Source of the DNA: Escherichia phage vB_EcoP-101120B1-2
DNA length: 39,845 nucleotides
Strand: one strand, 5' to 3'
Sequence record: MZ234022.1
The notes beneath the pieces were generated by a model that was given only the letters and a program-made list of their open reading frames with translations, did not search any database and had not been told where the DNA came from. Positions within the stretch are counted from its first letter, which is position 1. Every line of letters starts with the position of its first letter. Shown here in pieces: positions 1 to 23,382 of the stretch. Position numbers and translations under genes: made by a program.

Positions 1-3000
1 ATGCAGGAGCAAGAGGACCGCTCTACGTGGTTCGGTTTCGGTGCGGCTACAGAAGCTGAAGTGAAGAACTCTATGGTCGGCGTGGCTATACGAGCTGGTC
101 AGACTGAGGACTCACTGGATGTCATTGGCGATGTGTTCAACCCAACCAGATGGAACAACCATAAGTGGTCTCGTGAGGAGCTAGACCAGATTCGTAACGC
201 TGGGGTTTTGCCTCAGTATTACGGAGTCATTACTGGTGGCTCTCCTCAGAACCTGACCGAGCTTATTAACTTGGCGCTTGAGAACCAGAAGTTGGACCAA
301 GAGAAGGCCAAGGCTGGGACTGGTGCTCAACTGGCGGCTGGTGTGATTGGTGCTGGCGTGGACCCTCTGACCTACGTTCCTATTGCTGGGCAGGTAGGTA
401 AAGGTGGTAAGCTAGTCAACAAGATGTTCACTGTGGCTGCTCAGTCTGGTGCTCTGGCTGGGGCATCCGAGATTGCTCGAACATCAGTTGCTGGTGGGGA
501 CGCTCATGTTGCTGAAGCTATCCTTGGTGGCGCTCTCTTCGGTGGTGGCATGACTGCTATCGCTGATGGACTAGGCAGAGCCTTAGGTCGCAACACTAAT
601 GAGTTTGCTGGTCCAGCTACACGTTTGGAAGCTCGTGAGACAGCTCGTAACGTTGATGGTCAGGACCTGTCCCGTCTCCCTATTCAGGAAGGTGAGCAGA
701 CCTTTAGTCATCAAGGCGTTAAGTTCGCTGACGTTCCGAATGAGCCGGGAAGTGTACGATTAGAAGACGGTTCAATCCTGATTGGTGAGAACCCTCTGAA
801 CCCTAAGACACGTCAAGTCTTTGACGAAGTGATTGAGCCGGAACGTGCCGCTGCTGGTGTGAACCTTGGTGGACTTACCGAGATTGGCCTGAAGCTGCTT
901 CGGTCTGAGAACCCTGAGATTCGTGGAGTAGCTGCTGACTTAGTGCGTTCACCTACTGGTATGCAGTCTGGGGCCTCAGGTAAAATCGGGACAACTGCGT
1001 CAGACGTGTTCGAGAGACTTCGTTCTGTGGACCATCGGTTCTACAACGACATCGACGATGCGGTTACTGAGGCACTAAAGGACCCGTACTTCCAGACTGC
1101 ATTCTGGCGAGACTCTGGCGCATTCCGTCAGGACATCTACCAGCGTGTGTCTATGGCTATCGAAGATGGTAGCGGAAACCTGAAGGCTGAACTGACTCCG
1201 GGAGAACTGAAAGTCTATGACCTACTGAAGAACCAGTTCGACGCCAAGCGTGAGATGATGGAGAACCCAGCGATGTTTGGTCGTCCAGACGCTCAGTCTA
1301 TCTTTCCGGGTAGCCGCTTCAAGGGAACCTACGTCCCTCATGTGTATAGCAAACAGATGAAGGAGCTGTACATCAAGGAGCTTGGGAGTCCAGAGGCGTT
1401 GCAGGAGGCCATCAAGAAGTCATGGTTGACCAGCTATGCGTCTCGACCTGAAGTCAAGAAACGCGTGGACGAGGCACTTTTAGAGGCTGACCCTACGTTG
1501 ACTCCAGAAGGACTTGCGGCTGCGGTCGATAAGTACGCCAACGATAAGGCTTATGGTATCTCTCACACCGAGCAGTTCGAGCGTTCATCCGTAATGGAGG
1601 AGAACATCAACGGGCTGGTGGGTCTGGAGAACAACAGCTTCCTTGAGGCTCGTAACCTGTTCGATAGCGATATGTCAATCGTTCTTCCTAACGGTCAGAC
1701 CTTCAGTGTCAACAACCTGCGTGAGTGGGACATGGACAAGATTGTCCCGGCCTACAACCGTCGAGTTAATGGTGATATTGCTATCATGGCTGGTACAGGC
1801 AAGACCACGAAGGAAATGAAGGACTTAGTTGAGACCATGATGAACAAGGCTGGCGATGACGGAAAGTTGAAAGGTGAAGTATCTACCTTACGTGACACCC
1901 TGAAGATTCTCACTGGTCGTGCTCGACGTGATGGTGCTGATGATGCGGCCTTCGCTACCGTGATGCGCACGATGACAGACCTATCGTTCTTCGCTAAGAA
2001 TGCCTACATGGGTGTTCAGAACTTAACGGAGATTGGTGGTATGCTGGCTCGTGGTAACGTTCGTGCACTGCTACACGGAGTACCGATGTTCCGTGACCTA
2101 GCCTTCCGTAACAAGAAGGTCGGGGCCTCGGAGATTAAGGACCTGCATAATGTTATCTTCGGTAAAGAATTAGACGACTCAATCCGTCCGTCTAAACAGG
2201 ATGTTATCGACCGTCTGCGATCTTACAGTGACCTTAGTCGTGGTACAGCTACAGCTCTGGGGACTGCTAAGTATTACACTGGTGAACTTGCAGTACGCTC
2301 TCCGTTCACTAAAGTCCTCAACGGTACGACCAACTACCTGTTAGATGCTGGACGTCAAGGCTTCCTGTCTGACATCGTGGAGCATAGCCTGACTGGTAGT
2401 AAGCGTAAGTTCGATGACCGCTGGCTGAAGACCGCTGGTATATCTGGCGAGCAGTGGAGTGGAATTAAGTCCCTAATCCGTGAGTCAGTGACTCGTGGGC
2501 CAGACGGGAAGTACACCATCAAGGATAAGAAGGCGTTCAGTCAGGACCCAAGGGCTATGGACCTGTGGCGTATGGGTGACACCATCGCTGACGAGACGTT
2601 ACTCCGGCCTCATAAGCTGTCAAACATGGACGCCAAGGCTTATGGTCCTCTCGCTAAGACTGTCCTTCAGTTTAAGAACTTCGTCATCAAGTCTATCAAT
2701 GGGAGAACCATGCGAACCTTCTATAACGCCACGAAGAACAACAGAGCGATTGACGCTGCACTGTCGACCGTGATGTCTATGGGTCTGGCTGGTATCTACT
2801 ACATGGCTCAGGCGCATGTCAAGGCTTATGCTATGCAGGATGGTCGAGACCGTGACTACCTTAAGCAAGCTCTGGACCCAACGATGATTGGCTATGCGGC
2901 CCTGTCCCGTAGTTCACATCTTGGTGGCCCACTTGGGGTAGCTAACATTCTGGGAGGCATCGCTGGATATGAGGACACTAAGATGCTCCGTTCGTCTATC

Positions 3001-21298: not shown

Positions 21299-21312
21299 TA
21301 AGGAGAATTAAC

Positions 21313-21525
21313 ATGATTAAACTTATTGAATTTCTGGGTCGTCTGGTTGTGCGTGGCTATTCTCGTGCTGCGAGTGTGGAACGAAAAGTCGCATCTGCTG
21401 CGGCTAAAGGTGCGGAAGCGGCTGCTGCGGAAGCGGATAGTCTGCGCATCAAGTCTCTGGACGCTGGCCTACGTGCCAAAGGTCTTGACAAGAAAGCCGA
21501 GCAACTGAAAGGCTTCTTCAGCTAA
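21313..21525 (+). CDS. Hypothetical Ala-rich protein (70 aa) after the amidase gene
   Basis: SD AAGGAGA upstream of ATG; N-terminal hydrophobic segment then AAAKGAEAAAAEADSL... Confidence 0.45.
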   Translation: MIKLIEFLGRLVVRGYSRAASVERKVASAAAKGAEAAAAEADSLRIKSLDAGLRAKGLDKKAEQLKGFFS

Positions 21526-21542
21526 ACTATCACCTTAGGGAT
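21520..21542 (+). promoter_or_regulatory. Phage RNA polymerase promoter variant (phi3.8/4 position), CTAAACTATCACCTTAGGGATG
   Basis: Core with two substitutions (CACCTTAGG), probably weaker. Confidence 0.5.
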
Positions 21543-21588
21543 GAGACCACGGGTCTTGTCCCTTTGTTCGCATTTGAGATTAAGAAAT

Positions 21589-21667
21589 GTCTCCATAGCT
21601 CAAACGGTAGAGCGGTGGGTCGTGATGGCCTATTGCGATTAGGGTTCGAATCCCCGTGGAGACGCCA
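21589..21667 (+). tRNA. tRNA-like element: canonical acceptor stem, D-arm, T-arm and 3' CCA, but a non-canonical anticodon region (possible degenerate tRNA or tRNA-like processing signal)
   Basis: GTCTCCA (21589-95) pairs perfectly with TGGAGAC (21657-63), followed by G and CCA. D-arm GCTC-AAACGGTA-GAGC. T-arm TAGGG-TTCGAAT-CCCCG with one A-C mismatch. No 5-bp stem with a 7-nt loop and U33 could be folded in the intervening 26 nt. Confidence 0.4.
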
Positions 21668-21678
21668 CTAAGGAGTGA

Positions 21679-23382
<1,704 letters not shown>

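What the first reader, a model, noticed from the sequence alone, without database searches (positions are those of the whole stretch)
21589..21667. tRNA-like element between the gene 4 promoter and the primase-helicase gene
A 79-nt segment has a perfect 7-bp acceptor stem, a canonical D-arm (GCTC-AAACGGTA-GAGC with G18 G19), a T-arm with TTCGAAT loop and G53-C61, a discriminator base and 3' CCA. The 26 nt between the D- and T-arms cannot be folded into a canonical anticodon arm: no 5-bp stem with a 7-nt loop carrying U33 was found, and the best stems place G at position 33. It could be a degenerate tRNA, a tRNA with an unusual anticodon region, or a tRNA-like RNase P or 3'-processing signal in the gene 4 leader. 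I do not recall tRNAs in T7 itself.
Basis: seen in the sequence. Interest (0 to 1): 0.65.

Follow-up and report, generated by a model that had tools for sequence, protein, structure and literature searches.

The report
Conserved non-decoding tRNA-shaped phage RNA
A T7-like coliphage carries, just upstream of its primase-helicase gene, an optional 79-nt RNA that is tRNA-shaped and strongly conserved but has no usable anticodon, so it probably acts as an RNA-processing signal or tRNA mimic, not in translation.

Summary
Window 21589-21667 (+) is called a tRNA by ARAGORN and by Rfam RF00005 (38.7 bits, cut-off 29; canonical tRNAs score 60-72). The window is a Kayfunavirus. The element is an optional 88-nt cassette present in 34 of 219 related phage records, always between a phage promoter with a 5' hairpin and the gene 4 ribosome-binding site. 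GenBank annotators call it Thr, pseudo(GTG), 'OTHER' or nothing, and one paper mentions it as a 'pseudo-tRNA'. It is not a decaying pseudogene. In 16 genomes the acceptor, D and T arms have 0 of 53 variable sites, against 108 of 226 at gene 4 third codon positions, and stems show compensatory changes. It is also unlikely to decode: the anticodon loop lacks U33 and a purine at 37, the arm has non-standard junctions, and the 'anticodon' differs between close relatives. A second, smaller element (acceptor stem plus T-arm, no anticodon arm) occupies the equivalent leader slot in Przondovirus Klebsiella phages. Best reading: a selected, non-decoding tRNA-shaped module recognised by host RNase P and 3'-end enzymes. 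It acts either in cis as transcript 'punctuation' (favoured) or in trans as a tRNA mimic. Function is untested. Interest is moderate.

The parts
21526..21541 (+). Phage RNA polymerase promoter (ACTATCACCTTAGGGA). Transcription start is inferred at G21538 by analogy with T7.
   Evidence: The motif occurs 7 times in the window, all on the + strand, against 0.33 expected from shuffles. It is conserved in relatives with and without the element.
21538..21562 (+). An 11-bp hairpin at the 5' end of the transcript (GGGAUGAGACC-ACG-GGUCUUGUCCC), followed by a U-rich run.
   Evidence: Read directly from the sequence. Relatives show compensatory A-U to G-C changes (GAGACC/GGTCTT versus GGGACC/GGTCCT). 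A weak Rfam match aligns it as a terminator-type hairpin.
21579..21589 (+). Left, degraded copy of the translation-initiation block (ATTAAGAAATG). Its Shine-Dalgarno sequence is destroyed and its last G is base 1 of the tRNA-like element.
   Evidence: The empty form of the locus reads ...GTGATTAAGGAGTGACCAATG. In the tRNA-bearing form this block is duplicated on both sides of the insert.
21589..21667 (+). The tRNA-shaped element, 79 nt, including the encoded CCA. It is the cargo of an 88-nt optional insert (21579/80 to 21666/67).
   Evidence: ARAGORN; Rfam RF00005 at 38.7 bits; clean 88-nt indel against a tRNA-less relative; covariation; purifying selection.
21589..21595 (+). Acceptor stem, 5' strand (GUCUCCA). 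The inferred RNase P cleavage site lies between U21588 and G21589.
   Evidence: It forms 7 of 7 Watson-Crick pairs with 21657-21663. Phage pO91 has a U2-A71 to C2-G71 double change, and Kc166A has a register slip that keeps the stem paired. Cleavage is inferred, not shown.
21598..21613 (+). D-arm: a 4-bp stem GCUC/GAGC with loop AAACGGUA containing G18 G19.
   Evidence: The stem is invariant in all 8 distinct variants.
21616..21632 (+). Anticodon-arm equivalent: a 5-bp stem (21616-21620 with 21628-21632) and the non-canonical loop CGUGAUG. It is preceded by two linker bases (G21614, G21615) where a tRNA has one.
   Evidence: This is the only register in which every natural substitution keeps or improves pairing. 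The loop varies at 3 of 7 positions among relatives. The window's own T21616 turns the majority C.A mismatch into a U-A pair.
21633..21639 (+). A 7-nt variable region (UUGCGAU). Class I tRNAs usually have 4-5 nt here.
   Evidence: The 6 scored sites (21634-21639) are invariant in the enterobacterial phage copies (0 of 6 variable) and different in Kc166A.
21640..21656 (+). T-arm: stem UAGGG/CCCCG (one U.G pair and one A.C mismatch) with loop UUCGAAU.
   Evidence: Kc166A carries a G-C to A-U compensatory change and repairs the A.C mismatch to A-U.
21657..21667 (+). Acceptor stem 3' strand (21657-21663), discriminator G21664 and encoded CCA (21665-21667).
   Evidence: In Kc166A the stem register slips by one base and the 'CC' moves with it (ACCU).
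21667..21684 (+). Right, intact translation-initiation block (ACTAAGGAGTGACCAATG): Shine-Dalgarno AAGGAG at 21670-21675 and the gene 4 start codon at 21682-21684.
   Evidence: It is identical in tRNA-less relatives.
21682..23382 (+). Gene 4, the primase-helicase (566 aa). It is context, not part of the element.
   Evidence: ORF list and annotation of identical relatives.

Best explanation
The element is a tRNA-derived RNA module that is under selection but does not decode. It sits as an optional 88-nt cassette in the leader of the gene 4 transcription unit. Shown here: it has a tRNA cloverleaf supported by covariation. Its acceptor, D and T arms are far more conserved than neighbouring synonymous sites. 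Its anticodon arm is non-canonical and its loop varies between close relatives. Inferred: phage RNA polymerase transcribes it from the promoter at 21526-21541 and by read-through from upstream promoters. The RNA folds into an L-shape. Host RNase P cuts between U21588 and G21589, and host 3'-end enzymes trim back to CCA21667. That would have two consequences. It would cut the class II polycistronic RNA 14 nt upstream of the gene 4 start codon, and it would release a roughly 79-nt tRNA-shaped RNA. I favour the first as the selected function. That makes it a cis-acting 'tRNA punctuation' mark or insulator that gives the downstream message a defined 5' end, as tRNA-like t-elements do in plant mitochondria and where T7 itself uses RNase III sites. 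The released RNA would then be a by-product. The main reason is that the analogous Przondovirus element keeps only the acceptor stem and T-arm. That is the minimal RNase P substrate and a poor mimic of a whole tRNA.
For: tRNA calls come from two methods. Covariation: 90.5% of cells are paired, 6 pairs show double changes, and 0 of 500 shuffles reach this; slid controls give 32-56% paired. Selection: acceptor, D and T arms have 0 of 53 variable sites in 16 genomes, against 108 of 226 at gene 4 third positions (Fisher p about 1e-13) and 12 of 65 in the adjacent leader (p = 5e-4). The anticodon arm plus variable region has 4 of 26. Non-decoding: the loop CGUGAUG has G33 and U37, there are two linker bases and a 7-nt variable region, and ARAGORN assigns Ser, Thr, Met or Stop to near-identical relatives. 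Rfam scores are 36-39 bits against 60-72 for canonical tRNAs. RNase P-friendly features are read from the sequence: U at -1, G at +1, a perfect acceptor stem and RCCA. In Kc166A the CC follows the one-base slip of the acceptor register. An independent analogue in Przondovirus keeps acceptor and T-arm constant (1 of 31 variable sites, and that change preserves the pair) while the central domain varies (7 of 36). It also ends just upstream of a Shine-Dalgarno sequence. The promoter is confirmed.
Against: No expression, cleavage or end-mapping data exist, so RNase P processing is an inference from general substrate rules. About 85% of Kayfunavirus records lack the element yet keep an otherwise identical promoter, hairpin and ribosome-binding site, so any cis effect on gene 4 is dispensable. 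Its position next to the ribosome-binding site is also explained neutrally. The slot is a cassette hot spot bounded by repeated translation-initiation blocks and accepts other cargos, and the ORF downstream of the element is not always gene 4 (HNH in SH5, nucleotidyltransferase in Kc166A). The invariance of every unpaired core nucleotide is stronger than a simple cleavage signal would seem to need. A cut so close to the ribosome-binding site could harm rather than help gene 4 expression. Only 8 distinct sequences exist, and most acceptor-stem 'double changes' come from a single register slip in one phage.
Confidence: 0.4

Rival explanations
1. It is a trans-acting tRNA mimic or decoy. The excised tRNA-shaped RNA, made in large amounts by phage RNA polymerase, binds or occupies a host factor that recognises tRNA shape or the acceptor/CCA end. 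Candidates are a tRNA-targeting defence nuclease or toxin, a CCA-modifying toxin, or another tRNA-binding protein. This would protect host tRNAs or block the factor. It would be an accessory anti-defence RNA.
For: Its distribution is patchy among very close relatives (gp4 N-terminus 100% identical with and without it) in a slot that carries alternative accessory cargos, which is typical of accessory or anti-defence genes. The whole L-shape core is invariant, including every unpaired tertiary-interaction base and the variable region, which suggests recognition by a shape-reading protein. Many tRNA-targeting defences, and phage tRNA countermeasures to them, are known (papers listed, for example PMC10264068, PMC11464382, PMC11555353). 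In Kc166A the element lies next to a class II nucleotidyltransferase head-domain protein, and that copy lacks A76.
Against: A decoy for an anticodon nuclease should mimic and conserve a specific anticodon loop, but here the loop is the most variable part. The Przondovirus analogue lacks an anticodon arm and a proper N73-CCA end, so it is a poor whole-tRNA mimic. No partner or target is identified. The nucleotidyltransferase is not generally linked to the element: 195 phages have it without any tRNA call, and 33 of the 34 element-bearing records lack it. The PADLOC scan of that protein found nothing.
Confidence: 0.3
2. It is a working, aminoacylated decoding tRNA with an unusual anticodon arm, for example Ser(UGA), Thr(CGU), a His-like GUG reader, or an ochre suppressor in the variants with UUA. 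It would supplement or replace a host tRNA.
For: ARAGORN and Rfam call it a tRNA. The core is fully tRNA-like with an encoded CCA. Phage tRNAs with altered anticodon loops that still function are documented (PMC10264068, listed). In the majority variant an alternative register gives a loop with U33 and a purine at 37 (Thr CGU). Phage pO91 has U33 with anticodon UUA in the supported register.
Against: The register with U33 has a G.G mismatch in every copy, and natural substitutions break it. The supported register has G33 and U37. The putative anticodon changes identity among near-identical phages: UGA or UUA in one register; CGU, CAU or CUU in the other. There are two linker bases, a 7-nt variable region and no long arm as Ser identity would need. 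No close canonical relative was found: the nearest phage tRNAs share at most 59 of 79 bases, and tRNAs with the same acceptor stem are Arg. The Rfam score is half the canonical value.
Confidence: 0.08
3. It is a functionless tRNA pseudogene or a hitch-hiking remnant of a past insertion. Its uniformity would reflect recent spread of one cassette by recombination rather than selection.
For: tRNAscan-based annotations label it 'pseudo' or 'OTHER', and one paper calls it a pseudo-tRNA (PMC8402661). Most kayfunaviruses do without it. The slot exchanges cassettes by recombination.
Against: Core sites show 0 of 53 variable, against 48% of adjacent synonymous sites and 18% of the adjoining 65-nt leader. 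A recent sweep would need recombination breakpoints exactly at the cassette edges in many lineages. There are compensatory double changes in the acceptor and T stems. All five independent single changes in the anticodon stem convert mismatches or wobble pairs to Watson-Crick pairs. The element is retained in the distant Kosakonia phage with structure-preserving changes.
Confidence: 0.07
4. It has a replication-linked role. The tRNA-shaped RNA would serve the neighbouring primase-helicase as a ready-made primer through its 3' end, as host tRNAs can do for T7.
For: T7 can use E. coli tRNA as a substitute primer for lagging-strand synthesis, normally masked by gp5.5 (Zhu et al. 2012, as summarised in PMC11506809). 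The element lies directly upstream of gene 4.
Against: From memory, and not verified here, the T7 primer that tRNA ends mimic is ACCA, which needs A73. This element ends GCCA, and most host tRNAs already end ACCA, so a phage copy adds nothing. In SH5 and Kc166A another ORF separates the element from gene 4. The Przondovirus analogue is about 250 nt and one or two small ORFs away from gene 4.
Confidence: 0.03

Closest known systems
Canonical phage-encoded tRNA genes (T4, T5 and many large phages; Rfam RF00005)
   Same: It has a cloverleaf with a 7-bp acceptor stem, a D-arm with G18 G19, a T-loop UUCGAAU, a discriminator and an encoded CCA. It is transcribed as part of a longer phage transcript and has to be excised by host enzymes.
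   Different: The anticodon loop lacks U33 and a purine at 37. There are two linker bases and a 7-nt variable region. The 'anticodon' is not conserved between close relatives. The Rfam score is about half the canonical value. It is a single element in a roughly 40-kb T7-like phage, a group that normally has no tRNAs (1 of 79 gp4 loci).
Plant mitochondrial t-elements and the mitochondrial 'tRNA punctuation' model (from established knowledge)
   Same: These are tRNA-like structures without decoding function that sit at mRNA boundaries in polycistronic transcripts made by a phage-type RNA polymerase. They serve as RNase P / RNase Z cleavage signals that define mRNA ends.
   Different: Those are organellar and their cleavage is experimentally shown. 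Here the host is a bacterium, cleavage is only inferred, and the element is optional.
mascRNA, the MALAT1 3'-end tRNA-like element (from established knowledge)
   Same: It is a tRNA-like cloverleaf with a poorly conserved anticodon loop. RNase P recognises it to process the flanking long RNA, releasing a small CCA-ended tRNA-like RNA that is not aminoacylated.
   Different: It is eukaryotic and nuclear, and it defines the 3' end of the upstream RNA. No sequence relationship exists.
E. coli tRNA-mRNA co-transcripts such as thrU-tyrU-glyT-thrT-tufB (from established knowledge)
   Same: tRNAs lie upstream of a protein-coding gene in one transcript. RNase P and RNase E release the tRNAs and leave a translatable mRNA.
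   Different: Those tRNAs decode, and the spacer to tufB is about 100 nt. Here only 14 nt separate the CCA from the start codon.
T7 RNase III processing sites such as R3.8, between gene 3.5 and gene 4 (from established knowledge; gh-1 annotates putative sites in this region)
   Same: They occupy the same genomic neighbourhood and have the same presumed outcome, cutting class II polycistronic RNA just after a phage promoter.
   Different: The structure (a long imperfect hairpin) and the enzyme (RNase III) are different.
tRNA-like domain of tmRNA
   Same: An acceptor stem plus T-arm 'top half' without an anticodon arm resembles the Przondovirus analogue in particular, whose T-arm matches the tmRNA/tRNA consensus at 15 of 15 positions.
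   Different: There is no G3.U70 alanine identity pair, no mRNA-like domain and no tag ORF. ARAGORN finds no tmRNA.

Membership tests
tRNA (Rfam RF00005 / ARAGORN) | Score above the curated covariance-model threshold, and a cloverleaf call | tested here: met
   38.7 bits against a 29-bit cut-off, and an ARAGORN call. However, the score is only 36-39 bits in all copies, against 60-72 for canonical tRNAs run in the same search, and the Kc166A copy falls below the threshold.
tRNA (functional elongator) | A 7-bp acceptor stem, a D-arm with G18 G19, and a T-arm with a TPsiC loop closed by G53-C61 | tested here: met
   Read from the sequence. Pairing is supported by covariation. The T-stem has one A.C mismatch.
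tRNA (functional elongator) | A 5-bp anticodon stem with a 7-nt loop carrying U33 and a purine at position 37 | tested here: not met
   The supported register gives loop CGUGAUG with G33 and U37. The only register with U33 has an invariant G.G mismatch and is broken by natural substitutions.
tRNA (functional elongator) | Standard junctions: one base at position 26, and a variable region of 4-5 nt or a long arm | tested here: not met
   There are two bases (G26, G27) between the D and anticodon stems, and the variable region is 7 nt.
tRNA (functional elongator) | Anticodon conserved among orthologous copies | tested here: not met
   8 variants exist in 19 genomes. The loop varies at 3 of 7 positions, and ARAGORN calls Ser, Thr, Met or Stop.
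tRNA (functional elongator) | Aminoacylation and use on the ribosome | not testable with these tools
   This needs acid-gel or periodate assays and polysome or EF-Tu association experiments.
tRNA pseudogene (neutrally decaying) | Evolves at about the neutral rate, without structure-preserving bias | tested here: not met
   The core has 0 of 53 variable sites, against 108 of 226 synonymous-type sites (p about 1e-13). Substitutions are compensatory or improve pairing.
tRNA-like processing elements (t-elements, mascRNA type) | A tRNA-like fold with a non-functional anticodon region | tested here: met
tRNA-like processing elements (t-elements, mascRNA type) | Located at a boundary between RNA units within a longer transcript | tested here: met
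   It lies 51 nt downstream of the inferred transcription start, and its CCA ends 2 nt before the Shine-Dalgarno sequence and 14 nt before the gene 4 start codon.
tRNA-like processing elements (t-elements, mascRNA type) | Actually cleaved by RNase P (5') and a 3' endonuclease or exonucleases | not testable with these tools
   Only substrate features can be read from the sequence: U at -1, G at +1, a perfect acceptor stem, a T-arm and GCCA.
tmRNA | G3.U70 alanine identity pair, and an internal tag-peptide reading frame | tested here: not met
   The 3:70 pair is C-G. ARAGORN reports no tmRNA. Rfam tmRNA is matched only by the T-arm of the Przondovirus element, at 9.7 bits.
Suppressor tRNA | An anticodon complementary to a stop codon, in a canonical loop | tested here: not met
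   The window copy reads UGA (a Ser anticodon) in the supported register. UUA appears only in pO91 and PDP21P1, in both cases with a pyrimidine at position 37.

The most novel reading that the evidence does not exclude
T7-like phages of at least two genera (Kayfunavirus and Przondovirus) carry optional, strongly conserved, non-decoding tRNA-shaped RNAs in the same leader slot, and these act in trans as tRNA mimics. They would be abundant decoys that blunt host tRNA-targeting immunity or another tRNA-shape-reading factor. That would be an RNA-based counter-defence distinct from the known strategy of supplying replacement decoding tRNAs.
Probability: 0.25. Interest if true: 0.8.

Novelty: new variant of a known kind. 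Interest (0 to 1): 0.5.

Why it matters
T7-like phages are the textbook case of phages without tRNAs whose transcripts are processed by RNase III. A tRNA-shaped element that cannot decode, yet is more conserved than second codon positions of the adjacent essential gene, has to be doing something. Databases currently file it inconsistently as Thr, pseudo, 'OTHER' or nothing. If it is an RNase P 'punctuation mark', it would be a bacterial-virus counterpart of mitochondrial t-elements and a natural, compact RNA insulator. If it is a trans-acting mimic, it would add an RNA decoy to the phage counter-defence repertoire. Both ideas are directly testable, because natural isogenic-like phages with and without the 88 nt already exist. 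In practical terms, annotation pipelines should not count it as a decoding tRNA in therapeutic Kayfunavirus genomes.

Tried and rejected
1. Source of the element. blastn of the 79 nt against 5,426 complete E. coli genomes found nothing, but the database is too large for short seeds to reach significance. A metagenome pattern scan found nothing. IMG/VR held only phage ST31 itself. The nearest canonical phage tRNAs sharing the D-arm are Asn, at no more than 59 of 79 bases. Bacterial tRNAs with the same acceptor stem, T-loop and G73 were all tRNA-Arg (51 of 51). That pattern was biased, and the element lacks the Arg-type D-loop (it has GGUA where those tRNAs have GGAUA, read), so the ancestry is left open.

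2. Alternative anticodon-arm registers. Both 26-30/38-42 (ARAGORN 'Thr') and 31-35/47-51 were rejected because natural substitutions break them.

3. Whole-leader fold. It gave no informative structure (z = -1.2). I also started that fold 3 nt downstream of the transcription start.

4. First diversity run. It used a gene 4 frame off by one. This was corrected.

5. Functional link to the Kc166A nucleotidyltransferase. It was considered, but the gene is common in T7-like phages that have no tRNA call, so stacking of cargos in a hot-spot slot is the simpler reading.

6. tRNA-as-primer idea. It was considered and given low weight because the 3' end is GCCA (the primary paper is not held).

7. Generic detector for a tRNA top half (acceptor stem plus T-arm). 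It recovered the element plus two G.U-rich hits inside coding sequence (window 724-789 and L132 2175-2256), treated as chance. About 0.15 hits are expected per shuffled set of all loci.

8. Phage DY1. PMC8402661 names it as carrying the pseudo-tRNA, but it was not among my 34 hits and I did not trace it.
Full report
**Observation.** Window 21589-21667 (+) reads GTCTCCATAGCTCAAACGGTAGAGCGGTGGGTCGTGATGGCCTATTGCGATTAGGGTTCGAATCCCCGTGGAGACGCCA. ARAGORN reports it as the only tRNA in the window, as 'tRNA-Ser(tga)' (cloverleaf). Rfam RF00005 matches 21589-21664 at 38.7 bits, against a gathering score of 29, with E = 7.9e-05 for the whole window. No other Rfam family comes close in a permissive search.

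**Context.**
- The window is a Kayfunavirus (T7-like, Studiervirinae). In the 701-nt stretch compared (21300-22000) it is identical to Escherichia phage vB_EcoP-101120B2 and four PM phages.
- The upstream motif ACTATCACCTTAGGGA (21526-21541) belongs to a family of 7 copies, all on the + strand, against 0.33 expected. It is therefore a phage RNA polymerase promoter.
- Transcription should start at G21538. That is also the first base of an 11-bp hairpin (21538-21562), which shows compensatory changes in relatives.
- The CCA of the element ends 2 nt before the Shine-Dalgarno AAGGAG (21670-21675) of gene 4. The gene 4 start codon is at 21682 and the ORF runs to 23382.

**Distribution.**
- 34 of 219 phage records that share this region carry the element, and all are Kayfunavirus. 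Their hosts are E. coli, Salmonella, Enterobacter, Klebsiella, Citrobacter and Kosakonia.
- GenBank annotators disagree: tRNA-Thr, tRNA-Pseudo(GTG), tRNA-OTHER, a bare 'tRNA' label, or nothing.
- One paper remarks that a 'pseudo-tRNA gene' is predicted at this position in several kayfunaviruses (PMC8402661). I found no characterisation of it.
- Of 79 T7-like primase loci taken from IMG/VR (53-100% protein identity), only ST31 has any tRNA call nearby.

**It is an optional cassette.**
- A tRNA-less relative aligns perfectly on both sides of a clean 88-nt gap.
- The empty form reads ...CATTTGTG-ATTAAGGAGTGACCAATG (13 of 22 close loci).
- In the occupied form the block A(T/C)TAAGGAGTG is present on both sides: ATTAAGAAATG|TCTCC...GACGCC|ACTAAGGAGTG. 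The left copy has lost its Shine-Dalgarno sequence, and its last G is tRNA base 1.
- The same slot holds other cargos bounded by the same repeat:
  - a 59-aa ORF in L125 and L182 (phrog_6794);
  - an HNH endonuclease after the element in SH5;
  - a 179-aa nucleotidyltransferase-like ORF after it in Kc166A.
- Phages with and without the element can have 100% identical gp4 N-termini. Presence and absence therefore turn over quickly.

**Structure.** Nineteen genomes give 8 distinct sequences.
- On these, the cloverleaf has 90.5% of cells paired, against 32-56% in slid controls. Six pairs show changes on both sides, and 0 of 500 shuffles reach this.
- Five of those six pairs are in the acceptor stem. 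Most come from one event in Kosakonia phage Kc166A: a one-base register slip in which the A7-U66 pair is lost and an A.A is added at the end. They should be counted as one event.
- The independent cases are U2-A71 to C2-G71 in pO91 and G-C to A-U in the Kc166A T-stem.
- For the anticodon arm I compared three registers. Only 28-32/40-44 (window 21616-21620 with 21628-21632) survives. C28>U (the window's own variant), G29>A, U32>C and G40>A (seen twice) each turn a mismatch or wobble pair into a Watson-Crick pair. The ARAGORN 'Thr' register and a third register are broken by the same substitutions.
- In the supported register the loop is CGUGAUG, with G at position 33 and U at position 37. C32 and G38 could pair, leaving a pentaloop, as in the minimum-free-energy fold. 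Two bases link the D and anticodon stems, and the variable region is 7 nt.

**Selection.** I used 16 genomes, excluding Kc166A, SH5 and pO91.

| Region | Variable sites |
|---|---|
| Acceptor, D and T arms plus CCA | 0 of 53 |
| Anticodon arm plus variable region | 4 of 26 |
| Adjacent 65-nt leader | 12 of 65 |
| Gene 4 second codon positions | 21 of 227 |
| Gene 4 third codon positions | 108 of 226 |

- Core against third positions gives Fisher p of about 1e-13. Core against leader gives p = 5e-4. Core against anticodon arm gives p = 0.01.
- A neutral pseudogene is therefore excluded, unless one cassette spread very recently with breakpoints exactly at its edges in many lineages. That is unlikely, because the flanking leader is polymorphic.
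- The loop is the most variable part (G34>U/A, G36>U, U38>A in element numbering). As a result ARAGORN assigns Ser, Thr, Met or Stop to near-identical phages.
- Rfam scores are 35.9-38.7 bits for all copies, against 60-72 for canonical tRNAs in the same run. Kc166A falls below the threshold.
- Taken together, the molecule is selected for tRNA shape, not for decoding.

**A second element.** A covariance model built from the 8 variants gave weak hits spanning the full model length (13.7 bits) in another genus, Przondovirus (KP32/K11-like Klebsiella phages).
- The sequence, for example L163 1187-1254, follows a K11-type promoter and 5' hairpin.
- It has a perfect 7-bp acceptor-type stem (UGGUCAG/CUGACCA) and a T-arm CGGG-UUCGAUU-CCCG, 15 of 15 identical to the tRNA/tmRNA consensus.
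- It also has a D-like hairpin, only a tiny central hairpin, and a tail CACCA that runs straight into the GGAG of the next small ORF.
- 143 of 381 related records hold it. An element-less relative shows it is again a clean insertion just upstream of a Shine-Dalgarno sequence.
- Across 7 sequences the acceptor stem and T-arm have 1 variable site of 31 (A>G, keeping a U.G pair). The central domain has 7 of 36 and refolds differently between variants.
- Neither ARAGORN nor Rfam calls it, no record I fetched annotates it as an RNA, and I found no paper on it.
- Whether it shares ancestry with the Kayfunavirus element or is convergent is open. Their 3' halves look similar (UGCG..AUU.GGGUUCGAxUCCC).

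**Mechanism.** The sequence shows a good bacterial RNase P substrate: U at -1, G at +1, a perfect acceptor stem stacked on a T-arm, an intact D/T elbow and GCCA. In Kc166A the 'CC' moves with the slipped acceptor register. From established knowledge of RNase P and tRNA 3' maturation, I infer that any transcript crossing this region is cut at 21588/21589 and trimmed towards CCA. That would sever the polycistronic RNA 14 nt before the gene 4 start codon and release a tRNA-shaped RNA of about 79 nt.
- I favour selection on the cis effect, meaning 'tRNA punctuation' or insulation of the downstream translation-initiation region (confidence about 0.4). The reason is that the Przondovirus analogue retains only what RNase P needs.
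- The main rival is a trans-acting tRNA mimic or decoy (about 0.3). The patchy, accessory-like distribution and the invariance of every unpaired core base support it. The variable loop and the truncated Przondovirus form count against it.
- A decoding tRNA (about 0.08), a neutral pseudogene (about 0.07) and a primer role for the adjacent primase (about 0.03) are unlikely.
- None of these functions was testable here.

**Comparison with known systems.** It passes the sequence and structure thresholds of the tRNA family but fails three defining features of a working elongator tRNA: the anticodon loop, the junction geometry and a conserved anticodon. It fails the defining feature of a pseudogene, which is neutral evolution. 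It behaves most like plant mitochondrial t-elements and mascRNA, which are tRNA-like folds without decoding function at RNA boundaries, cut by RNase P. It also resembles bacterial tRNA-mRNA co-transcripts such as the tufB operon. It sits where T7 uses an RNase III site.

**Novelty and score.** Its existence is already recorded, in inconsistent GenBank annotations and one sentence in a paper. The following appear to be new: the evidence that it is selected yet non-decoding, the cassette architecture, and the second element in Przondovirus. I rate it a new variant of a known kind, with interest 0.5.

Noticed in passing
L163 1187-1254 (also L165, L167, L168, L170, L171, L173, L179, L183, L186; GenBank loci L208-L211): Przondovirus (KP32/K11-like) Klebsiella phages carry a 68-72-nt mini tRNA-like element at the equivalent leader slot, after the promoter and 5' hairpin and ending at the GGAG of the next small ORF. 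It has a perfect 7-bp acceptor-type stem and a canonical T-arm, but no anticodon arm. 143 of 381 related records hold it, it is a clean insertion relative to IME321, and it is not annotated as an RNA in the records I fetched. Some records place a probably spurious 'hypothetical protein' ORF over it.
   Followed up: partly
window 21579-21589 and 21667-21684; L125 and L182 (about 1240-1503): The slot between the gene 4 promoter and gene 4 is a cassette hot spot. Cargos are bracketed by repeats of the translation-initiation block TAAGGAGTGACC(A/G)ATG. Alternative cargos are the tRNA-like element, a 59-aa ORF (phrog_6794, unknown function), an HNH endonuclease (SH5) and a nucleotidyltransferase (Kc166A).
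   Followed up: partly
L003 1594-2133 (Kosakonia phage Kc166A): The ORF immediately after the tRNA-like element, in the one copy that ends ACCU instead of GCCA, is a 179-aa protein with the class II nucleotidyltransferase head motif (GGCARD...DWD). It matches phrog_1614 at 1.5e-28 and Pfam PolyA_pol only at 15 bits, below the cut-off. The same small gene sits in the amidase/primase slot of 195 T7-like phages (gh-1, Dickeya JA10, Klebsiella Sibilus, Pseudomonas 3MF5) that have no tRNA call. Its substrate is unknown.
   Followed up: partly
window 21538-21568: An 11-bp GC-rich hairpin starts exactly at the inferred transcription start and is followed by UUUGUU. It is conserved, with compensatory changes, in relatives with and without the element, and it looks like a 5' stabiliser or a terminator/pause-type hairpin. 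Przondovirus has an analogous 7-bp hairpin at the same place.
   Followed up: no
window 3304, 9529, 21526, 27279, 30100, 31080, 35863 (+ strand): There are seven copies of the phage promoter core ACTATCAC(TA/CT)TAGG(G/A)A. The gene 4 copy is the only one with CCTTAGGGA in place of the consensus CTATAGGGA.
   Followed up: no
window 21616: The window and four other identical records have T at element position 28, where the other 12 majority-type genomes fetched have C. This single change converts the C.A mismatch at the base of the anticodon stem into U-A and flips ARAGORN's call from Thr(cgt) to Ser(tga).
   Followed up: yes
window 21587-21598: The degraded left initiation block leaves a 3-codon mini-ORF, ATG TCT CCA TAG, that overlaps the 5' acceptor strand. 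Its Shine-Dalgarno sequence is destroyed (AAGAAA), so it is probably not translated.
   Followed up: no
window 21313-21525: The 70-aa ORF upstream of the promoter belongs to phrog_1950 (unknown function). It is highly divergent between relatives and is absent from LM33_P1-type genomes that still carry the tRNA-like element, so it is not linked to the element.
   Followed up: partly
L010 (Salmonella phage vB Seyj3-1, MW416012): The record annotates a truncated primase/helicase followed directly by 'tail fiber' and 'tail tube' genes. This suggests a misassembly or an annotation problem in that record.
   Followed up: no
L081 6848-7327: A Bacilli metagenome-assembled genome contig, fetched only for its tRNA-Arg, carries an OLE RNA (RF01071, 208.7 bits) about 90 nt downstream of that tRNA. 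It is unrelated to the finding.
   Followed up: no
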